Positions 10,942-15,859 of a stretch of DNA of 64,000 bases are shown here, one piece after another. The stretch spans positions 1,915 to 65,914 of the forward strand of contig JBFKLX010000003.1 of NCBI GenBank assembly GCA_041630155.1, written 5' to 3'. Position 1 is the first letter of the stretch; each line of letters starts with the position of its first letter. This DNA comes from Acidobacteriota bacterium (GTDB taxonomy: Bacteria > Acidobacteriota > UBA6911 > RPQK01 > JANQFM01). The position numbers and the translations under genes were made by a program. A model generated the notes under the pieces. It ran no database searches and was not told where the DNA came from. It was given only the letters and a program-made list of their open reading frames with translations.

Positions 10942-11280
10942 ATGCGCTGCCAAACGTGTGGAAAGGACTGGCCCTCGAGACATTACTTCGTCACCGACTC
11001 GCTCTGCAACGAGTGTTTCGGACAAATACCAGAGGCAGAGCAGAAGGCGGTCCGTGCAGACGTGGAGAGTCTCAACCGGGAGGGAGCCGCAAGACGCGTC
11101 GTGGGCGGCTGGGATCTGGAGTGCCCGATCTGCGGCCACCGAGAGTTTTGGAAGCGGAAGACGCTGATGAACACGCCGGGCCTGACTTTCTTCGGAGTGG
11201 AATGGGCGAACCGCCAAGCCGACAATTATGTCTGCGATGCCTGCGGGCACGTGCTGTGGTTTGTGCGCGAGGGCAGCTGA
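10942..11280 (+). CDS. Small zinc-ribbon protein (four CxxC pairs)
   Basis: MRCQTCG...CNEC...CPICG...CDACG; strong RBS GGAGGAGG upstream. Confidence 0.5.
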   Translation: MRCQTCGKDWPSRHYFVTDSLCNECFGQIPEAEQKAVRADVESLNREGAARRVVGGWDLECPICGHREFWKRKTLMNTPGLTFFGVEWANRQADNYVCDACGHVLWFVREGS

Positions 11281-11377
11281 CCCCGGAAGTGCGATCAGTC
11301 CTCGGATGGACTGTCGATACTGGGCTCGAGCGCGGCGACTTCCGAGAAGCCCGAGCCGGTGTCCGGCCGCTTCGGCT

Positions 11378-12619
11378 TTACAGGTTACGCAGGTAGTCCA
11401 AGAGATTCGCGAGTTCCTGGGGCGGCAGGCGGGTGGGAGGCATGGCCGTTCGAGGGTACGATTCCCCAGGTCTGAGAACGACTGCTTCTAGATACGGGAC
11501 AGTTCGCAGCCGGCCGATACCCTGCAGGGCCGGCCCCGCCATGGCTCCAAACTCCCCCGTGGTTTCGTGACAATCGGCGCAACCCTCTTCGCGGTAGATC
11601 GCAATACCCGTCCGCGCGGCGGCGGCGGGTCGCTGCAGAGACATCAGATACTCGACCAGCGCCTCCACAGCCTCTCCGGTCTGGGAGCCCTCCGGCATTC
11701 TGGAGGTCCGGTTGACCGCTCTCGGCGCTTCGATGACCCGGCGAAGGTACTCGGCGGGCCGCCGGCTGCCGATATGGAGCAAGCCCGGACCGCTCTCCCG
11801 CCAGGCAGTGCTGTCGAGGTCGTGACAGAGGTGGCATTGCTCCTCGAAGAAGAGTTCGCGTCCCCTGTCGCGTGCCATCTTCCCTTTGCGGTAATGGAAA
11901 TGCAGGCTGGCGACTCCCACATGGCCGGCACCATCCTCCACGTTCACAGTGAGGAGGTGATCTCCCGGCTCGAGTTTGGGGTCGCAGGGGAGGGCGAAAC
12001 TCTCGACCCCTCCCTCCAACCGAGCTTCGCCCTGTAGAGCATAGTCGAGGTAGCAGCGCACGGAGAATCCAGACTCTCGCCCGAGCTGGGTGGCTCGCGT
12101 GAGCCTGGCTGTGATCCCTGAGAGGTCGGGCTCGGTGCCAGCAGCGGAGCTGAGGATCTCGATGCCGAGCTCGTGACAGTCCTCGGCCGGGTGAGCCAGA
12201 TGGCTTGGCTCGTCCCCCTCGAACGAAATGAACGAGTTCCGGTTGTCCACCAGGTTTCCGGAAGCATCGCGGCCGTCCCAGTTCACGCTGTGGAGGCCGA
12301 AGCCCTGATGGGTCCAGTCCAGGAGCGTACGGAGGACCAATGAGGGGTTTGGGCGCCAGACTACTCGGATGCGGATGAGCCCGTCACGGGTCAGGCGGTA
12401 GGAGATGCGGGCGGGTTCGTCCCGCCTCGGATCGAAGCTGAGCGCGGCCGCGGTTGACCGGTCGGTGATGCGAACGGGAAGGTGCAAGTAACCTTTGTCT
12501 GGAGTGTCGATTTCGAGAAGCTCCGCTGTCTCCTCGGCACCAGACTGGAGTCCTTCGCATCCGCCAGCCCCCGAGACGGACAATACGCAGAGCAGGTGAA
12601 AGAAGGTGCAGCGGCACAT
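11378..12619 (-). CDS. Lipoprotein with N-terminal Ig-like (FlgD-Ig-like) domain and C-terminal dihaem cytochrome c
   Basis: Two CxxCH motifs (CHLCH, CADCH). The N-terminal region is paralogous to the 13276-14187 product (WDGRDASGNLVD vs WDGHDYSGNIID). Confidence 0.65.
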   Translation of the reverse strand: MCRCTFFHLLCVLSVSGAGGCEGLQSGAEETAELLEIDTPDKGYLHLPVRITDRSTAAALSFDPRRDEPARISYRLTRDGLIRIRVVWRPNPSLVLRTLLDWTHQGFGLHSVNWDGRDASGNLVDNRNSFISFEGDEPSHLAHPAEDCHELGIEILSSAAGTEPDLSGITARLTRATQLGRESGFSVRCYLDYALQGEARLEGGVESFALPCDPKLEPGDHLLTVNVEDGAGHVGVASLHFHYRKGKMARDRGRELFFEEQCHLCHDLDSTAWRESGPGLLHIGSRRPAEYLRRVIEAPRAVNRTSRMPEGSQTGEAVEALVEYLMSLQRPAAAARTGIAIYREEGCADCHETTGEFGAMAGPALQGIGRLRTVPYLEAVVLRPGESYPRTAMPPTRLPPQELANLLDYLRNL

Positions 12620-12731
12620 GGAGCCTCCCGAGCCTGGAGGATGCCTCGGCCACCGGGCAATCCGGAGCCCCGGTCATGGGGATCGGGGGAGCAGCGGACG
12701 GCCCGGTGCTCGAGGAGAAAGCAACTACCCC

Positions 12732-13250
12732 CTAGCGGCCCCGATCGTGGGGAACGTAGACTTGACAAGACCTTTCGGCGACCAAGGTCTGGAACAGGCC
12801 CCTGGCCCAGGCGCGGACCACTATGGTGTAGGTGCGGCCCATGCCGTACTGGGCGGCCGTGTTGCCGCACCGCTCAGCCCGGGCTCTGACCATCCCGAAC
12901 CCTTGGCCACTGACGGGATCGGTGGTGTAGGCGGTCTGCACGTAACAGTCGTTGGTGGTGTTTCCGTCGCCGACACCTGTTGCGTTGTCAGGCTGGTTGC
13001 TGCTGACGCTGACCACCTGCCAGTCGACTGGCGGGTTGCTGGGATCCCTGGGGTCGGCGGTAACGTTCGCGGTGACCATGATGTCCCGATATTTATGGTT
13101 GGGCGGCCAGAGTTGGTCGGGATCGCACGAGAGTTCGTTGATGGTCGGCGGGTAATACGCCCCGCAGCAGGCCTCCACTTCTGCTACATGGTAACTGCCC
13201 AGGAAAGCCAGTACTGCGGCAGCCCCGATGACCATTGCTAGTCGTTTCAT
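12732..13250 (-). CDS. Small secreted Cys-containing protein with LWPPNHK motif, function unknown
   Basis: Signal peptide MKRLAMVIGAAAVLAFLG; lies between the two paralogous genes. Confidence 0.45.
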   Translation of the reverse strand: MKRLAMVIGAAAVLAFLGSYHVAEVEACCGAYYPPTINELSCDPDQLWPPNHKYRDIMVTANVTADPRDPSNPPVDWQVVSVSSNQPDNATGVGDGNTTNDCYVQTAYTTDPVSGQGFGMVRARAERCGNTAAQYGMGRTYTIVVRAWARGLFQTLVAERSCQVYVPHDRGR

Positions 13251-13275
13251 TTCTAGATCTCCTTTTTCTTGTTTC

Positions 13276-14187
13276 TTACGGGTTTCCGGCCGCGTTCCGG
13301 AAGACTACCGGAACGCTTGCCGAGGTGGCGTGTTGATGGTGATCACACATTCCGATCTGAAGCAGATGCTCGCCATCCGGGAAGGCGGACGTGTCCAGGC
13401 GGTACGCGAACCGTCCGTCGCTCTCGGGCTTGTAAAATTCCTCTCGTGCCAAAACCCCGTCGACGTAGTAGCGCACTCCGTAACCGTACAAATCGCCATA
13501 ACCGCGGCGATTTTCGTCGACTTCAGAGCGGATCAGGAGAAGCCCGCGCGACTCGGCCCGGGGCGCCGGCTCCAGGATTCGAAGATACGGCACCTCTTCG
13601 GCCCAGGCATGATGAGTGCCGTGCTCGTGTTCCTCCTCGCTGTGCACGATCTCCTCGGGACTTCGTGAATCAAGGGGCATCAGTTCCGACCCGTGCTCCG
13701 GCTTGCGGGCGATGAGTGTGATGGTTGCCCGTGACATGTCGATGATGTTGCCCGAGTAGTCGTGACCGTCCCAAATCTCGGTATGCTCCCCGGGCTCCCG
13801 CAAATCCCAGTTCAGGATGGTCGCCAGAAAGAGCTCGCGGGTCTCTGCATCCTTGACGCGTATCTGAACTCGCGCAGGTTCTGTCAGTCGGTAGTGGAGG
13901 AGGGCCGTTTCGCCGCGTTCCGGGCTGAAGGTGAAGGCCTCTGTGAGATTGACGTCCTGCAATCCTCCCCAATATGTCTCTTCGTGCTGTTCTCCCTCGA
14001 CGTGTACATGTCCGTCCGCGTGCGGATGCTCGTGCCCAGTTTGGGCTGCCTCCCCAAAAGGGCAGACAGTGCCGCTGGAAGGCTCACTCATCGCCTTGGC
14101 TGCTGGCTCTTGGTGAGTCAGGGTCAACAGCCCTGCCCCGACGGCGAACACGGCGATACCGCCGACAATCCAAGTGGAACTCTTCAT
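13276..14187 (-). CDS. Secreted His-rich protein with Ig-like domain (paralogue of the cytochrome c fusion), putative metal-binding
   Basis: Signal peptide; HEHPHADGHVHVEGEQHEE and HSEEEHEHGTHH tracts; central domain homologous to the N-terminal region of 11378-12619. Confidence 0.6.
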   Translation of the reverse strand: MKSSTWIVGGIAVFAVGAGLLTLTHQEPAAKAMSEPSSGTVCPFGEAAQTGHEHPHADGHVHVEGEQHEETYWGGLQDVNLTEAFTFSPERGETALLHYRLTEPARVQIRVKDAETRELFLATILNWDLREPGEHTEIWDGHDYSGNIIDMSRATITLIARKPEHGSELMPLDSRSPEEIVHSEEEHEHGTHHAWAEEVPYLRILEPAPRAESRGLLLIRSEVDENRRGYGDLYGYGVRYYVDGVLAREEFYKPESDGRFAYRLDTSAFPDGEHLLQIGMCDHHQHATSASVPVVFRNAAGNP

Positions 14188-14432
14188 GGGCTACCTCCCG
14201 TGGCGTTGTTTGGAAAGCTGGTGGGTTCAGATTACGGCCGCCTGCTAACGATGTCGATGAGCCCGGTGGCCCATTCTTGGCACTAATTCGTGAGCCATTT
14301 GACCTGGCCCGCGCTTCTCGTGAGGGTTGGTCGGGAAGCGTCCGAAGAGTCGCGCGACTAGAAGGGCCGGGGAGTCCGTGAAGGCTCTGCGAGAAGGCTC
14401 TTGAAGGGACCCGGCGCTCCCTGCCGGAGTGC

Positions 14433-15077
14433 TCAAATCAAGCGGCGGCGCCGGGCACAGGAAACCGCCTCCAGGCGGCTGTGCACTCCCAGCTTGCTCA
14501 GAATGCTTTGGATGTGGTTCCGGACGGTATGCGAGGAGATGAACAGGAGCTCCGAGATCTCCTTGGTGCCTTCTCCCGCAGCCAGCAGCCTCAGAATCTC
14601 CAGCTCGCGCCGAGTCAAGCGCCGGTTCATGGCAGCATACCGCTGGGCTTGCGAAGGGGGAGCCGAAGCATCAGCTCTCCGCGAGCGATTGGAACTGCTC
14701 TTGGGACGACGGGAGGATTTCGTGATCAGACTGAGCACGTGAACGAGGTCGAACTCAGAGTGATCACTTCGGGGGAGTACGATGATGGTGACCCATGCTT
14801 GGATGTATTGGCAGTAGGCGGTTTGCAGATTCAGCCTGAACCGGTGAATCGGCTCTTGCCGGCGAGCCATCCTCTGCACTGGACAATCCGTTCCGCAGTA
14901 ACGGTTGCCGAAGGAATCCGTGCCACAAATGACTCGATGGCACAGTCTCCCGAGGGCCTCGCTCTCTTTCACACCGACGAGTCGCGAAATGGCAGCGTTC
15001 CAAGCACCAATCCTGCCCTCGTGATCGACTGCGAATGCGGCTTCGTCGGTACCCGACACTATGTCGAGGATGTCCAT
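14433..15077 (-). CDS. PAS-domain / LuxR-family HTH one-component transcriptional regulator; PAS carries four clustered cysteines
   Basis: C-terminal GerE/LuxR HTH (LTRRELEILRLLAAGEGTKEISELLFISSHTVRNHIQSILSKLGV); N-terminal PAS-like region with CHRVICGTDSFGNRYCGTDCP; start at MDILDIV. Confidence 0.7.
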   Translation of the reverse strand: MDILDIVSGTDEAAFAVDHEGRIGAWNAAISRLVGVKESEALGRLCHRVICGTDSFGNRYCGTDCPVQRMARRQEPIHRFRLNLQTAYCQYIQAWVTIIVLPRSDHSEFDLVHVLSLITKSSRRPKSSSNRSRRADASAPPSQAQRYAAMNRRLTRRELEILRLLAAGEGTKEISELLFISSHTVRNHIQSILSKLGVHSRLEAVSCARRRRLI

Positions 15078-15451
15078 GTCCACTCCCAGTGACGGTTTCG
15101 GCGCGGCTGTCCTTCGGAATGACCGTTTCGCAGAATAGAGGAGAGCCTCTGGCCTGTGCCACTGAGTCTTACTCCAAATCATACCACGGGCTGCTCCAAG
15201 GACGTTTCAACTCAGACAATATCCTTCCGATCCGAATGCGGCTTGGGCCGGCAAAGCCCGGGGAATTCGGAATACCCGATCCTGTCCATCCCGGGATCCG
15301 GTCAAGACTCGAGATTTGGATGCCGGGGAATTTGGGACAGGATCACCGAGTCGCTTGGTGACTCGTGGATGGCGCGATTCTCACCGGCCGACCCTGTGAC
15401 ATAGGTCTGGCCAGGCTCGTGCGGCTCGGAGCTGGCCCGCAGATGAAACTG

Positions 15452-15859
15452 TCATTGTTCATTCTGAGGCCGTGAGCCAGTCGGCAAAAGCTGTTGCGTC
15501 TCCTCCTGAACCAATACCCAGACCGCGTAGGCCCCCACGAGGGTGCCGTGAGGGAAGACTGGCAGGTTCAGAATGGCCACGATGAGCGTGAGGATCCGGG
15601 CCCAGCTCCGTCTCTTCAGCAATCCGTAGGCAGCGGCAAAGTTGGGGATCGTCGTCAGCGCGATGATGAGGGCGATGAAGGCCCCGAAGGCCGCCGGCAG
15701 AAAAACGAGCGGAAGCGGCACATCGCCTTCTCGAACAGCAACCGTGCCCAGAACAGCGCTTCCCAGGCCGAAAACGATCAGAACCACCAGAATTCCAATC
15801 AACCCCAGAATTCCCAACCCAATGAAGAGTGCACCCAGAGCAGTTATGTGTTTGTCCAT
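15452..15859 (-). CDS. Small integral membrane protein (4 TM), function unknown
   Basis: Hydrophobic 135-aa ORF. Confidence 0.45.
   Translation of the reverse strand: MDKHITALGALFIGLGILGLIGILVVLIVFGLGSAVLGTVAVREGDVPLPLVFLPAAFGAFIALIIALTTIPNFAAAYGLLKRRSWARILTLIVAILNLPVFPHGTLVGAYAVWVLVQEETQQLLPTGSRPQNEQ

What the first reader, a model, noticed from the sequence alone, without database searches (positions are those of the whole stretch)
11378..15077. Redox/metal locus: paralogous secreted Ig-like proteins (one fused to dihaem cytochrome c, one His-rich) plus a 4-Cys PAS-LuxR regulator
Products of 11378-12619 and 13276-14187 share an N-terminal beta-sandwich region (WDGRDASGNLVD / WDGHDYSGNIID). 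One continues into two CxxCH haem domains. The other carries dense HxH tracts (HEHPHADGHVHVEGEQHEE; HSEEEHEHGTHH) typical of Cu/Ni/Zn-binding proteins. A small Cys-containing secreted protein (LWPPNHK) lies between them. Directly upstream on the same strand is a PAS-LuxR regulator whose PAS domain has Cx4Cx9Cx3C, a spacing reminiscent of [Fe-S]-PAS oxygen sensors such as NreB, but here fused straight to a DNA-binding domain with no kinase.
Basis: partly seen in the sequence, partly recalled or inferred. Interest (0 to 1): 0.55.

Follow-up and report, generated by a model that had tools for sequence, protein, structure and literature searches.

The report
Uncharacterised exported metal-handling operon with redox regulator
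Four neighbouring genes in a probable Acidobacteriota genome encode two related metal-binding proteins (one fused to a two-haem cytochrome), a small protein predicted to begin with Cys-Cys-Gly once exported, and a sensor-regulator with a conserved cysteine site; cytoplasmic relatives of the first three sit next to nickel-sensing and nickel/cobalt-uptake genes, so this looks like an undescribed metal-handling system.

Summary

- **The two Ig-like proteins.** They are paralogues over both beta-sandwich domains (hhalign 99.85 %, E 9e-31). Each keeps an invariant His/Cys/Asp set.
- **The operon core.** The two paralogues (A, B) and the small protein (S) form a conserved core with no Pfam, NCBIfam or PDB sequence relatives.
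  - In four Acidobacteriota-like loci the order is PAS-LuxR, A, S, B fused to a di-haem cytochrome c.
  - In Nitrospirota, Aerophobetes and many metagenome contigs a version without signal peptides lies in the order methyltransferase, A, CCG-repeat peptide, S, B, NikR, CbiM/Q/O.
- **The Cys-Cys-Gly element.** All stand-alone S homologues with an intact N-terminus have Cys-Cys directly after the signal peptide. The cytoplasmic loci instead encode a separate MCCG-repeat peptide.
- **The regulator.** It belongs to a family of more than 1,300 proteins. Three cysteines and one Asp are invariant.

Best reading: an exported metal-binding relay, with nickel favoured and copper possible, coupled to electron transfer and placed beside a probable Fe-S redox sensor. 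Function and metal are inferred, not shown.

The parts
14433..15077 (-). PAS-LuxR one-component regulator (214 aa; an upstream ATG at 15182 would give 249 aa)
   Evidence: Pfam GerE 70.4 bits and PAS 27.2 bits, both above cut-off. A gene caller on an identical contig uses the 214-aa start. AF2 mean pLDDT 89; closest solved structures are EL222, VqmA and 3clo.
14883..14942 (-). Cys-rich loop of the PAS domain: C46-x4-C51-x2-D54-x6-C61-x3-C65 (214-aa numbering)
   Evidence: C46, D54, C61 and C65 are invariant in 60 of 60 aligned homologues. The three Cys are invariant in 120 of 120. C51 is present in only 15 of 120; 71 of 120 have Cys at position 47 instead.
14188..14432 (-). Intergenic region between the regulator and gene A (245 nt); presumed promoter/operator
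   Evidence: Inferred from gene spacing only. No sigma-70-like hit. Partial conservation with L004, but no clear shared palindrome across four loci.
13276..14187 (-). Protein A: N-terminal hydrophobic helix, disordered His tract, and two Ig-like domains joined by a His-rich linker
13984..14034 (-). Variable N-terminal His tract of A (residues 52-68, HEHPHADGHVHVEGEQH)
   Evidence: pLDDT below 50. At least 4 His in the N-terminal segment of 20 of 43 homologues; absent from one clade.
13609..13644 (-). Conserved His linker of A (residues 182-193, HSEEEHEHGTHH)
   Evidence: H187 and H189 are invariant in 43 of 43.
13330..13347 (-). CDHHQH loop in the last beta-hairpin of A domain 2 (residues 281-286)
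   Evidence: C281, D282, H283 and H286 are invariant in 43 of 43. D282 and H286 align with the invariant D229 and H233 of B.
12732..13250 (-). Protein S: signal peptide, Cys-Cys-Gly, one peptide-like unit, and the LWPPNHK beta domain
   Evidence: No Pfam, NCBIfam or PDB match. The domain has 2,540 relatives at E<=1e-3 among cluster representatives, mostly inside large PKD/FG-GAP/Ig surface proteins.
13161..13169 (-). Cys28-Cys29-Gly30 of S, directly after the predicted signal-peptide end VEA
   Evidence: An A-C-C-[G/A/V] motif at the same place occurs in every stand-alone S homologue with an intact N-terminus (7 representatives plus L015, L004, L006 and L021). It does not occur there in the multidomain proteins.
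11378..12619 (-). Protein B: signal or lipoprotein-like N-terminus, two Ig-like domains paralogous to A, and two class-I cytochrome c domains
   Evidence: Of the hits, 16 are clear homologues (E <= 5e-48): 9 carry the cytochrome fusion and 7 do not. Invariant residues are H140, H143, C148, D229 and H233.
11822..11836 (-). Haem-binding motif 1, CHLCH (residues 262-266)
   Evidence: Read from the sequence. CxxCH appears in the A3 consensus; conservation across the nine fused orthologues was not counted separately.
11567..11581 (-). Haem-binding motif 2, CADCH (residues 347-351)
   Evidence: Read from the sequence. Conserved in the A3 consensus together with a TAMPP Met candidate.

Best explanation
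The locus encodes an exported three-protein metal-handling module next to its likely redox regulator.

**Components**
- A and B are paralogous double-Ig proteins. Each is expected to hold a metal at a site built from the inter-domain linker and the last hairpin of domain 2.
  - A: H187, H189, C281, D282, H283, H286.
  - B: H140, H143, C148, D229, H233.
- A also carries a floppy His-rich tract that could gather ions.
- S, after signal-peptide cleavage, would start with Cys-Cys-Gly. I propose this as a thiolate/amine metal-binding arm that docks on A and/or B.
- The two c-type haems fused to B would link the redox state of the bound metal, or of its cysteine ligands, to the periplasmic electron-transfer chain. 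Fusions of Sco copper chaperones to cytochrome c are thought to work this way.

**Metal**
Nickel is favoured, because signal-peptide-less homologues of A, S and B are co-operonic with NikR and a CbiM/Q/O-type ECF importer. Copper remains possible for this exported, cytochrome-fused form.

**Regulator**
The PAS-LuxR protein upstream most likely binds an Fe-S cluster through C46, C61, C65 and D54. It would switch DNA binding with O2 or redox state and so control the operon.

**Shown:** domain content, paralogy, residue invariance and synteny.
**Inferred:** metal binding, metal identity, the processed N-terminus, electron flow, and the regulator's cofactor and target.
For: 1. **Paralogy over both domains:**
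2. **Invariant His/Cys/Asp sets** in two small families that otherwise share only 27 % identity at the profile level.
3. **Four distinct loci** keep the order PAS-GerE, A, S, B-cytochrome (window; L004/L005/L012; L006; L021).
4. **Link to nickel genes.** Cytoplasmic homologues lie in the order methyltransferase, A, CCG peptide, S, B, NikR, CbiM, CbiQ, CbiO. This holds in genomes titled Nitrospirae, Nitrospiraceae and Pseudomonadota, partly in Thermodesulfovibrionia (the contig ends within B), and in several assemblies and metagenome contigs. NikR is missing from the Nitrospirae locus L013, and the Aerophobetes locus L001 has only methyltransferase, A and the peptide.
   - B is 41 % identical to the 238-aa homologue.
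   - NikR scores 208.7 bits against a cut-off of 105.
   - B and nikR are separated by only 2 nt, or overlap by a few nt on the longer nikR ORF.
5. **Peptide-seeded test.** 35 metagenome loci seeded only on the CCG peptide recover the same gene order where the contig is long enough. Six longer contigs carry the peptide without these neighbours.
6. **Cys-Cys directly after the signal peptide** in all stand-alone S homologues with an intact N-terminus, and MCCG at the start of the separate peptide in cytoplasmic loci.
7. **B must be exported.** It carries two CxxCH haem domains, and c-type haem attachment is periplasmic (established knowledge).
8. **Regulator.** Three Cys and one Asp are invariant.
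   - OrpR is an experimentally studied PAS Fe-S centre with three conserved Cys (PMC8359166).
   - NreB of B. licheniformis is another (PMC13478379).
   - From my own knowledge: E. coli HypB binds Ni through an N-terminal CxxCGC motif and its amine, CooT uses Cys2, and Hpn contains GCC pairs.
Against: - There are no experimental data.
- The window itself has no nikR, no nickel transporter and no methyltransferase. The nickel link rests entirely on homologues of about 40 % identity.
- Ni(II) is not redox-active at cytochrome c potentials, so the haem fusion fits nickel poorly unless thiol or cofactor chemistry is involved.
- Signal-peptide cleavage before Cys-Cys is predicted by eye. Lipoprotein processing (A-C as a lipobox end) is not excluded.
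- Regulator homologues occur in many unrelated contexts.
- No shared operator was found.
Confidence: 0.45

Rival explanations
1. A peptide- or protein-maturation (RiPP-like) system. A and/or B are metalloenzymes that chemically modify the N-terminal Cys-Cys of S, or the tandem CCG units of the separate peptide in cytoplasmic loci. The modification could be an oxidative cross-link, or a thiol-derived ligand for a metallophore or cofactor. The cytochrome c domains would carry away or supply the electrons.
For: - The peptide is a tandem repeat of 1-7 near-identical 22-aa units, CCGTAKSPCIEVELHPDV[AE]E[NS]. It is conserved across loci titled Aerophobetes and Pseudomonadota and untitled metagenome contigs, like a multi-core precursor.
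- A methyltransferase gene ends about 12 nt before A in five of the type-B loci.
- A redox partner fused to B suggests catalysis rather than storage.
- The N-terminus of the window's S protein resembles one repeat unit by eye.
Against: - No recognisable RiPP enzyme, leader peptidase or exporter is present.
- In the window the 'substrate' is a folded 145-aa protein, not a short peptide.
Confidence: 0.2
2. The same architecture, but the metal is copper. The module would be a periplasmic Cu(I)/Cu(II) buffering, detoxification or delivery relay. The haems would reduce or oxidise protein-bound copper, as in Sco-cytochrome c fusions or cupredoxin-cytochrome pairs.
For: - The C-x-H-x2-H loop lies between the last two strands of a beta-sandwich. 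By my own knowledge this is the topology of the cupredoxin Cys-His-Met loop.
- The system is exported and fused to class-I cytochrome c.
- The cytochrome region has a weak match to the cytochrome c domain of a Sco/SenC fusion, PDB 2l4d (E 0.004).
- Copper, unlike nickel, exchanges electrons with cytochrome c.
Against: - The only genomic metal marker in the family is NikR with a Ni/Co ECF transporter.
- No cop, cus or pco genes are among the Pfam-scanned neighbours; the rest of the window was not scanned.
- Met, the usual periplasmic Cu(I) ligand, is not enriched (5 Met in A).
- Cytoplasmic homologues would be odd for a copper system.
Confidence: 0.15
3. The three proteins are ordinary surface or structural Ig-domain proteins. 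The His tracts are low-complexity noise, and the neighbouring regulator and the cytochrome fusion are unrelated to metal handling.
For: - The S domain occurs mainly in large PKD/FG-GAP surface proteins.
- The N-terminal His tract is variable.
- Neighbours on both sides of the four genes look unrelated to metals.
Against: - His, Cys and Asp are invariant at equivalent positions in both paralogue families.
- The gene order is conserved across phyla.
- Cytoplasmic versions without signal peptides are co-operonic with nikR.
- The Cys-Cys N-terminus is strictly conserved.
Confidence: 0.08
4. The regulator's cysteines do not hold an Fe-S cluster. They form a structural Zn site, a thiol-disulfide switch, or a Cys/His (Cys-Pro) haem-binding site.
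For: - The fourth ligand position varies (Cys47, Cys51 or His47).
- The last Cys is followed by Pro or His, a haem-regulatory-motif-like pattern.
- A LuxR-type HTH/PAS one-component regulator that binds haem is known, FG214 (bioRxiv 10.64898/2026.03.15.711900).
- The AF2 model places the loop confidently without any cofactor (pLDDT above 90), as expected for a Zn-knuckle-like insert.
Against: - Three invariant Cys plus an invariant acidic residue match the ligand sets reported or proposed for the PAS Fe-S sensor OrpR (PMC8359166). By my own knowledge they also match B. subtilis Fnr.
- FG214 ligates haem with His and Met and has the reverse domain order.
- Several homologues sit among Usp and CBS genes, which by my own knowledge are typical of hypoxia and redox regulons.
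Confidence: 0.3

Closest known systems
Nickel-binding motifs: HypB N-terminal CxxCGC site, CooT Cys2 site, and Hpn His-rich storage protein with GCC pairs (recalled from my own knowledge, not tested here)
   Same: - Cysteines at or next to the N-terminus, used together with the free amine.
- His-rich flexible tracts.
- Genomic association with nickel regulation and uptake in the cytoplasmic homologues.
   Different: - No sequence or fold relationship. A and B are double Ig-like proteins and S is a beta-domain protein.
- No hydrogenase, urease or CODH maturation genes were seen in the neighbourhoods examined.
- The window version is exported and fused to cytochrome c.
Sco/SenC-cytochrome c fusion proteins (e.g. 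PDB 2l4d, Pseudomonas putida)
   Same: A Cys/His metal-handling domain fused to a class-I cytochrome c in the periplasm. The cytochrome region has a weak sequence match (E 0.004).
   Different: Sco has a thioredoxin fold with a CxxxC motif. Here the carrier is a double Ig-like module, with two haem domains rather than one. Electron transfer is inferred, not shown.
FlgD Ig-like domain (Pfam PF13860)
   Different: The Pfam score is 16.5 bits against a cut-off of 27. There is no flagellar context. The invariant metal-type residues are absent from the FlgD family definition.
PAS Fe-S sensors: NreB (S. carnosus Cx2Cx11Cx2C [4Fe-4S]; B. licheniformis 3-Cys [2Fe-2S], PMC13478379) and OrpR (C52/C61/C65 [4Fe-4S], PMC8359166)
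   Same: Three strictly conserved cysteines plus a variable or non-Cys fourth ligand inside a PAS domain. The last pair is Cx3C, as in OrpR. There is a conserved acidic residue near the triad.
   Different: - The spacing is Cx14Cx3C.
- The output is a LuxR HTH, not a kinase or a sigma-54 AAA+ domain.
- No NreB entry appeared among the listed PDB sequence matches.
- The cofactor is not demonstrated.
EL222 and VqmA (PAS/LOV plus LuxR-type HTH one-component regulators)
   Same: The same two-domain order and size. They are the top Foldseek hits (E 3e-8 to 5e-6). EL222 also matches by sequence over both domains (E 2e-5).
   Different: There is no flavin-binding NCRFLQ-type motif, judged by eye from the sequence. 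It has a Cys-rich insert between the E-alpha and F-alpha helices instead.
SoxYZ/SoxAX sulfur-carrier system
   Different: - The SoxX score is below its cut-off of 61.
- There is no GGCGG C-terminal arm and no sox genes.
- The Ig similarity is generic.
- The NikR linkage points to metal, not sulfur.

Membership tests
Class-I c-type cytochrome (Pfam PF00034 / PF13442) | CxxCH haem-attachment motif with a distal Met, and a score above the Pfam gathering threshold | tested here: met
   PF00034 scores 55 bits (cut-off 21.3) and PF13442 scores 44.3 bits (cut-off 27), each with two stretches. The motifs are CHLCH and CADCH, with SRMPEG and TAMPP as Met candidates.
FlgD Ig-like domain (PF13860) | Score above the Pfam gathering threshold (27 bits) | tested here: not met
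   16.5 bits for B, covering only 26 residues. No hit for A at E<=0.1. Fold similarity only.
LuxR/GerE HTH regulators (PF00196) | C-terminal GerE helix-turn-helix above threshold | tested here: met
   70.4 bits against 23.5. Many solved LuxR-type HTH domains match at E<=1e-8.
PAS domain (PF00989) | PAS fold above threshold; five-stranded sheet with helical connector | tested here: met
   27.2 bits against 22.6. The AF2 model has PAS topology at pLDDT above 90, with Foldseek hits to FixL, DosP and LOV PAS domains.
NreB-type Fe-S PAS sensor kinases | Cx2Cx11C(x2C) motif in the PAS domain | tested here: not met
   The spacing here is Cx4Cx9Cx3C, and the conserved core is Cx14Cx3C. The NreB motifs are given in PMC13478379.
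NreB-type Fe-S PAS sensor kinases | Histidine-kinase output with NreC partner | tested here: not met
   The output is a fused GerE HTH. There is no HisKA or HATPase domain.
NreB-type Fe-S PAS sensor kinases | Bound [4Fe-4S] or [2Fe-2S] cluster | not testable with these tools
   Needs anaerobic purification with UV-visible and EPR spectroscopy.
LOV photosensors (EL222-like) | Flavin-binding pocket with the conserved adduct-forming Cys (GxNCRFLQ-type motif) | tested here: not met
   The motif is absent from the PAS sequence, by inspection only. Only the architecture and fold match.
NikR-controlled nickel uptake loci (NikR plus Nik/CbiMNQO) | nikR and ECF Ni/Co transporter genes in the same locus | tested here: not met
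   Not met in the window: tblastn finds no NikR or CbiM/Q, only a weak ABC ATPase hit elsewhere. Met in many homologous loci.
Proposed A-S-B module (this report; no existing family) | Adjacent genes for a CDH[HN]xH double-Ig protein, a Cys-Cys-N-terminal protein or peptide, and a DDxxDH/GH double-Ig paralogue | tested here: met
   Window genes 13276-14187, 12732-13250 and 11378-12619. The same triad is in L004, L006, L012, L015, L021, L007, L009 and the type-B loci.

The most novel reading that the evidence does not exclude
A, S and B, together with the CCG-repeat peptide of the cytoplasmic loci, form a previously unrecognised nickel-thiolate system. Its working part would be an amino-terminal Cys-Cys-Gly site: amine/amide nitrogens plus thiolates, as in the NiSOD hook or the ACS Cys-Gly-Cys site. 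Two double-Ig metalloproteins would present or mature it. In Acidobacteriota the system has been exported and wired to c-type haems, which would make it either a new class of nickel chaperone or store, or a new redox-active Ni-S (or Cu-S) centre.
Probability: 0.25. Interest if true: 0.85.

Novelty: new variant of a known kind. Interest (0 to 1): 0.62.

Why it matters
- **Nickel handling.** Few nickel storage and delivery proteins are known (Hpn, HypA/B, SlyD, UreE, CooJ/T, LarC), and none is built on Ig-like domains or an N-terminal Cys-Cys. A conserved, unannotated module co-operonic with nikR in anaerobic lineages would be a concrete new candidate for how these organisms buffer or route nickel. 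The exported cytochrome-fused form is an unusual pairing of a metal carrier with electron transfer.
- **Regulation.** The regulator belongs to a family of more than 1,300 PAS-LuxR proteins with an invariant Cys3-Asp site. That would be a large unstudied class of one-component redox sensors.
- **Testability.** All of these claims can be tested with recombinant proteins.

Tried and rejected
- **PDB sequence searches.** A and S give only chance-level hits.
- **Foldseek against afdb50.** The library was not available.
- **Promoter and terminator scan of 11200-15500.** Nothing above shuffled expectation.
- **Alignment of the regulator-A intergenic regions from four loci.** There is partial conservation between the window and L004, and a CTGGG-N-CCCAG palindrome only in L006 and L021. 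No shared operator can be claimed.
- **NikR operator search.** I looked for a NikR-type palindrome (GTGTTAC-N-GTAACAC) upstream of methyltransferase-A or S-B in the cytoplasmic loci.
  - Only one conserved element per locus was found, just downstream of nikR.
  - Direct NikR control of A/S/B is therefore not shown.
- **Rfam.** Nothing in the window. No NiCo riboswitch in the related loci.
- **tRNA scan of the window.** Nothing.
- **Literature searches.** Searches for PAS-LuxR Fe-S proteins and for the peptide and LWPPNHK motifs found no description of these families.
- **Cable-bacteria nickel paper (PMC11247825).** It does not mention these proteins.
- **Regulator homologues.** Their genomic contexts are heterogeneous, so they give no common target.
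- **Sox-like sulfur-carrier reading.** Considered and set aside:
  - the SoxX score is below its cut-off;
  - the Ig similarity is generic;
  - there are no sox genes.

Full report
**1. What is in the window**

Four co-directional genes lie on the minus strand.
- **Regulator, 14433-15077.** An upstream ATG would extend it to 15182. A gene caller on an identical contig uses the 214-aa form.
- **A, 13276-14187 (303 aa).**
- **S, 12732-13250 (172 aa).**
- **B, 11378-12619 (413 aa).**

The gaps are 245 nt (regulator to A), 25 nt (A to S) and 112 nt (S to B). The next gene downstream is convergent, so A-S-B looks like one operon with the regulator transcribed separately. This is inferred from spacing, and the promoter scan was uninformative. 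Neighbours on both sides look unrelated to metals: an amidohydrolase, a DUF5009-like membrane protein, a zinc-ribbon protein, a small membrane protein and a Na/Ca exchanger. The closest relative with an organism title is an Acidobacteriota MAG (A 64 % identical), so the window is probably acidobacterial. That is an inference.

**2. Checking the observation**

- B ends in two class-I cytochrome c domains above Pfam cut-offs, with CHLCH and CADCH motifs. They are only generically similar to small c555- or SoxX-like cytochromes.
- A has 6.6 % His, including the quoted tracts.
- A and B share 36 % identity over 90 residues (E 3e-15).
- The regulator is PAS plus GerE, with Cx4Cx9Cx3C.

**3. The two Ig-like proteins are paralogues over their whole Ig part, with different invariant residues**

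The families are small. A has 43 cluster representatives and B has 16 clear homologues among about 5.8 billion proteins. Neither carries a Pfam domain, apart from the cytochrome domains on the fused B proteins and a single Big_7 hit among the A homologues.

Profile-profile comparison aligns 211 columns, A residues 68-303 with B residues 43-253 (probability 99.85 %, E 8.7e-31). An AlphaFold2 model of A has mean pLDDT 80.6 and shows these elements:
- an N-terminal helix at 6-23;
- a disordered stretch at 31-67;
- two beta-sandwiches at 76-161 and 202-296;
- a less confident linker between them.

The invariant residues are more informative.
- In A, H187 and H189 (linker) and C281, D282, H283, H286 (last hairpin of domain 2) are identical in all 43 sequences.
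- In B, H140, H143 and C148 (linker) and D229 and H233 (same hairpin) are invariant.
- In the hhalign alignment, A's D282 and H286 fall on B's D229 and H233.

A ligand loop between the last two strands of a beta-sandwich is the arrangement used by cupredoxins and superoxide reductase. That comparison comes from my own knowledge and is an analogy only.

At least 4 His occur in the N-terminal segment of 20 of 43 homologues, and none in one clade. It is best seen as an accessory.

Nine B homologues carry the di-haem fusion and seven do not.

**4. Gene neighbourhoods**

Type-A loci have the window's arrangement: PAS-GerE, A, S, B-cytochrome. They recur in three further lineages: L004/L005/L012, L006 and L021.

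Other exported variants exist.
- L007 and L009 have A, a different 262-275-aa protein, B and a second B paralogue.
- L015 (Vicingus) has A, S, B and B'.

Type-B loci have A, S and B without signal peptides. They occur in genomes titled Nitrospirae, Nitrospiraceae, Thermodesulfovibrionia and Pseudomonadota, and in several assemblies and metagenome contigs. The Aerophobetes genome (L001) has only the methyltransferase, A and the peptide. Details:
- A begins MH(D/E)H.
- S is a 92-99-aa protein that matches an HMM of the S domain at about 1e-5 in five loci.
- B is a 238-aa protein 41 % identical to the window's B.
- The order is Methyltransf_11, A, small peptide, S, B, NikR, CbiM(N), CbiQ, CbiO and a 246-aa protein.
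- NikR is well above the NCBIfam cut-off (208.7 bits against 105).
- One locus also has DUF4198, which I recall as NikK.
- B and nikR are separated by only 2 nt, or overlap by a few nt on the longer nikR ORF, which suggests co-transcription.

This is the only independent functional marker for the family, and it points to nickel. The transporter type also carries cobalt, and NCBI names it CbiM. The window itself has none of these genes.

**5. A conserved Cys-Cys-Gly element**

While reading the A-S intergenic regions of type-B loci I found a tiny gene with a strong ribosome-binding site. It starts MCCG and consists of 1-7 tandem copies of CCGTAKSPCIEVELHPDV[AE]E[NS].

A metagenome scan seeded on this peptide alone returned 35 loci. 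Where enough sequence follows, the order A, peptide, S, B, NikR, CbiM/Q/O is recovered. S follows in about 20 loci and NikR in 8. Six longer contigs carry the peptide without these genes. In the one I read (L053) it lies among PEP-CTERM proteins.

In the exported systems there is no separate peptide. Instead, the protein encoded between A and B has Cys-Cys directly after an AxA-type signal-peptide end.
- Window S: VAEVEA|CCGAYYPP.
- L006, L004 and L021: A[ED]A|CCG.
- L015: TKA|CCG.
- L007 and L009: VWA|CCG, on an unrelated domain.

All seven stand-alone S representatives with an intact N-terminus show the same feature. The multidomain surface proteins that carry the LWPPNHK domain do not have it at that position.

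By eye, the window's CCGAYYPPTINELSCDPD resembles one peptide unit, CCGTAKSPCIEVELHPDV. S may therefore be a fusion of one unit to the S domain. That is inferred and was not tested statistically.

In both compartments the mature product would begin Cys-Cys-Gly, after Met removal or after signal cleavage. That too is an inference.

N-terminal cysteines together with the free amine bind Ni in HypB and CooT, and GCC pairs occur in Hpn. This comes from my own knowledge.

**6. The regulator**

More than 1,364 homologues exist.
- Among the best 120, C46, C61 and C65 (214-aa numbering) are invariant.
- 71 have a Cys at position 47, and 15 (including the window) have His there.
- In a 60-sequence alignment D54 is also invariant.
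- Among the cluster-linked orthologues the fourth Cys is Cx4C (window, L004), CC (L006) or absent (L021).

The AF2 model (mean pLDDT 89) puts the motif in an insert between the E-alpha and F-alpha helices of a normal PAS fold. The best solved matches are EL222, VqmA and 3clo. The PAS-then-LuxR layout is therefore ordinary: over 6,000 PAS+LuxR proteins are in SMART, mostly in this order (bioRxiv 10.64898/2026.03.15.711900).

Three-Cys PAS Fe-S centres have been demonstrated.
- OrpR has C52/C61/C65 and a [4Fe-4S] cluster, with a conserved acidic residue proposed as fourth ligand (PMC8359166).
- B. licheniformis NreB has a CX2CX11C motif and a [2Fe-2S] cluster with a labile sulfur ligand (PMC13478379).

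The family here resembles these in logic but not in spacing or output. No NreB entry appeared among the listed PDB sequence matches.

Zn, a disulfide switch or haem are not excluded. Homologues sit in varied contexts, one of them among Usp and CBS genes. The link to A-S-B is therefore a lineage-specific recruitment.

**7. How it most likely works**

- **Shown:** domain content, paralogy, invariance, synteny and the need for export of a c-type cytochrome.
- **Inferred:**
  - A and B each hold a metal at the linker/hairpin site.
  - S offers a Cys-Cys N-terminal arm.
  - The haems of B tie the redox state of the metal or its thiolates to the periplasmic electron chain, by analogy with Sco-cytochrome c fusions.
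  - The PAS-LuxR protein senses O2 or redox state through an Fe-S cluster and controls the operon.
- **Metal:** nickel is favoured by context, but copper fits the cytochrome better.
- **Rivals:** a RiPP-like maturation system acting on the Cys-Cys element, a copper relay, or plain structural proteins.

**8. Novelty and verdict**

The regulator and the cytochrome domains are members or variants of known kinds. A, S and B belong to no described family. Their conserved association with each other, with a Cys-Cys-Gly element and with NikR in other phyla was not found in the literature searched.

I rate the locus as a new variant of a known kind (metal-handling proteins plus a one-component redox sensor). 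There is a real chance that the core is something new. Everything functional remains to be tested.

Noticed in passing
L017:2166-2450; L002:2970-3434 (-); L010:4811-4912; L001:8862-9095; 35 further loci L024-L058: A tiny gene between A and S in the signal-peptide-less loci encodes 1-7 tandem copies of the 22-aa unit CCGTAKSPCIEVELHPDV[AE]E[NS]. It starts MCCG and follows a strong RBS. It is nearly identical across the loci that carry it, including ones titled Aerophobetes and Pseudomonadota.
   Followed up: yes
L053:5995-6162 (also L054, L055): A two-unit variant of the CCG peptide (MPMCCGTAKSPC...) lies without A, S, B or NikR. In L053 it sits among PEP-CTERM-tailed proteins and next to a sigma-54 activator. 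L054 and L055 lack A/S/B hits, but their neighbours were not read.
   Followed up: partly
L002 ~1352 (-), L010:6471, L011:10503, L014:3498, L017:4517: A conserved element, GT[GA]YTACGAA followed after about 12 nt by T-rich/TTATGC, lies just downstream of nikR and before the next gene. It may be an operator half-site or an RNA element. It matches no Rfam family.
   Followed up: partly
window 12732-13250 and 2,540 database representatives: The LWPPNHK...SN[EQ]PDN...GDG.T..D...RAER.G..GR.YT...VPHD domain of S is widespread as a module of large PKD/FG-GAP/Ig surface proteins. It has no Pfam or NCBIfam model.
   Followed up: partly
window 14433-15077 and homologues P0001-P0120: A family of more than 1,300 PAS-LuxR one-component regulators shares the motif C-[CH]-x4-G-x-D-x2-G-N-R-x-C-x3-C-[HP]. 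They come mostly from Rokubacteria/NC10, Acidobacteriota, Planctomycetota and soil metagenomes. I found no description of it in the papers searched.
   Followed up: partly
window 10942-11280 (+): A small 112-aa protein with four CxxC pairs (CQTC, CNEC, CPIC, CDAC) is convergent with the end of the operon. It gives only weak zinc-ribbon Pfam hits.
   Followed up: no
L010:967-1057: A c-di-GMP-I riboswitch (74.7 bits) lies upstream of an fn3-domain gene, about 3 kb from the A gene of that locus.
   Followed up: no
L007:2146-2934 and L009:1171-1998: In two exported loci the gene between A and B encodes a 262-275-aa protein with the same signal-peptide|CCG start but a different, unannotated beta-rich domain. 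The Cys-Cys start, not the S domain, may therefore be the constant element.
   Followed up: partly
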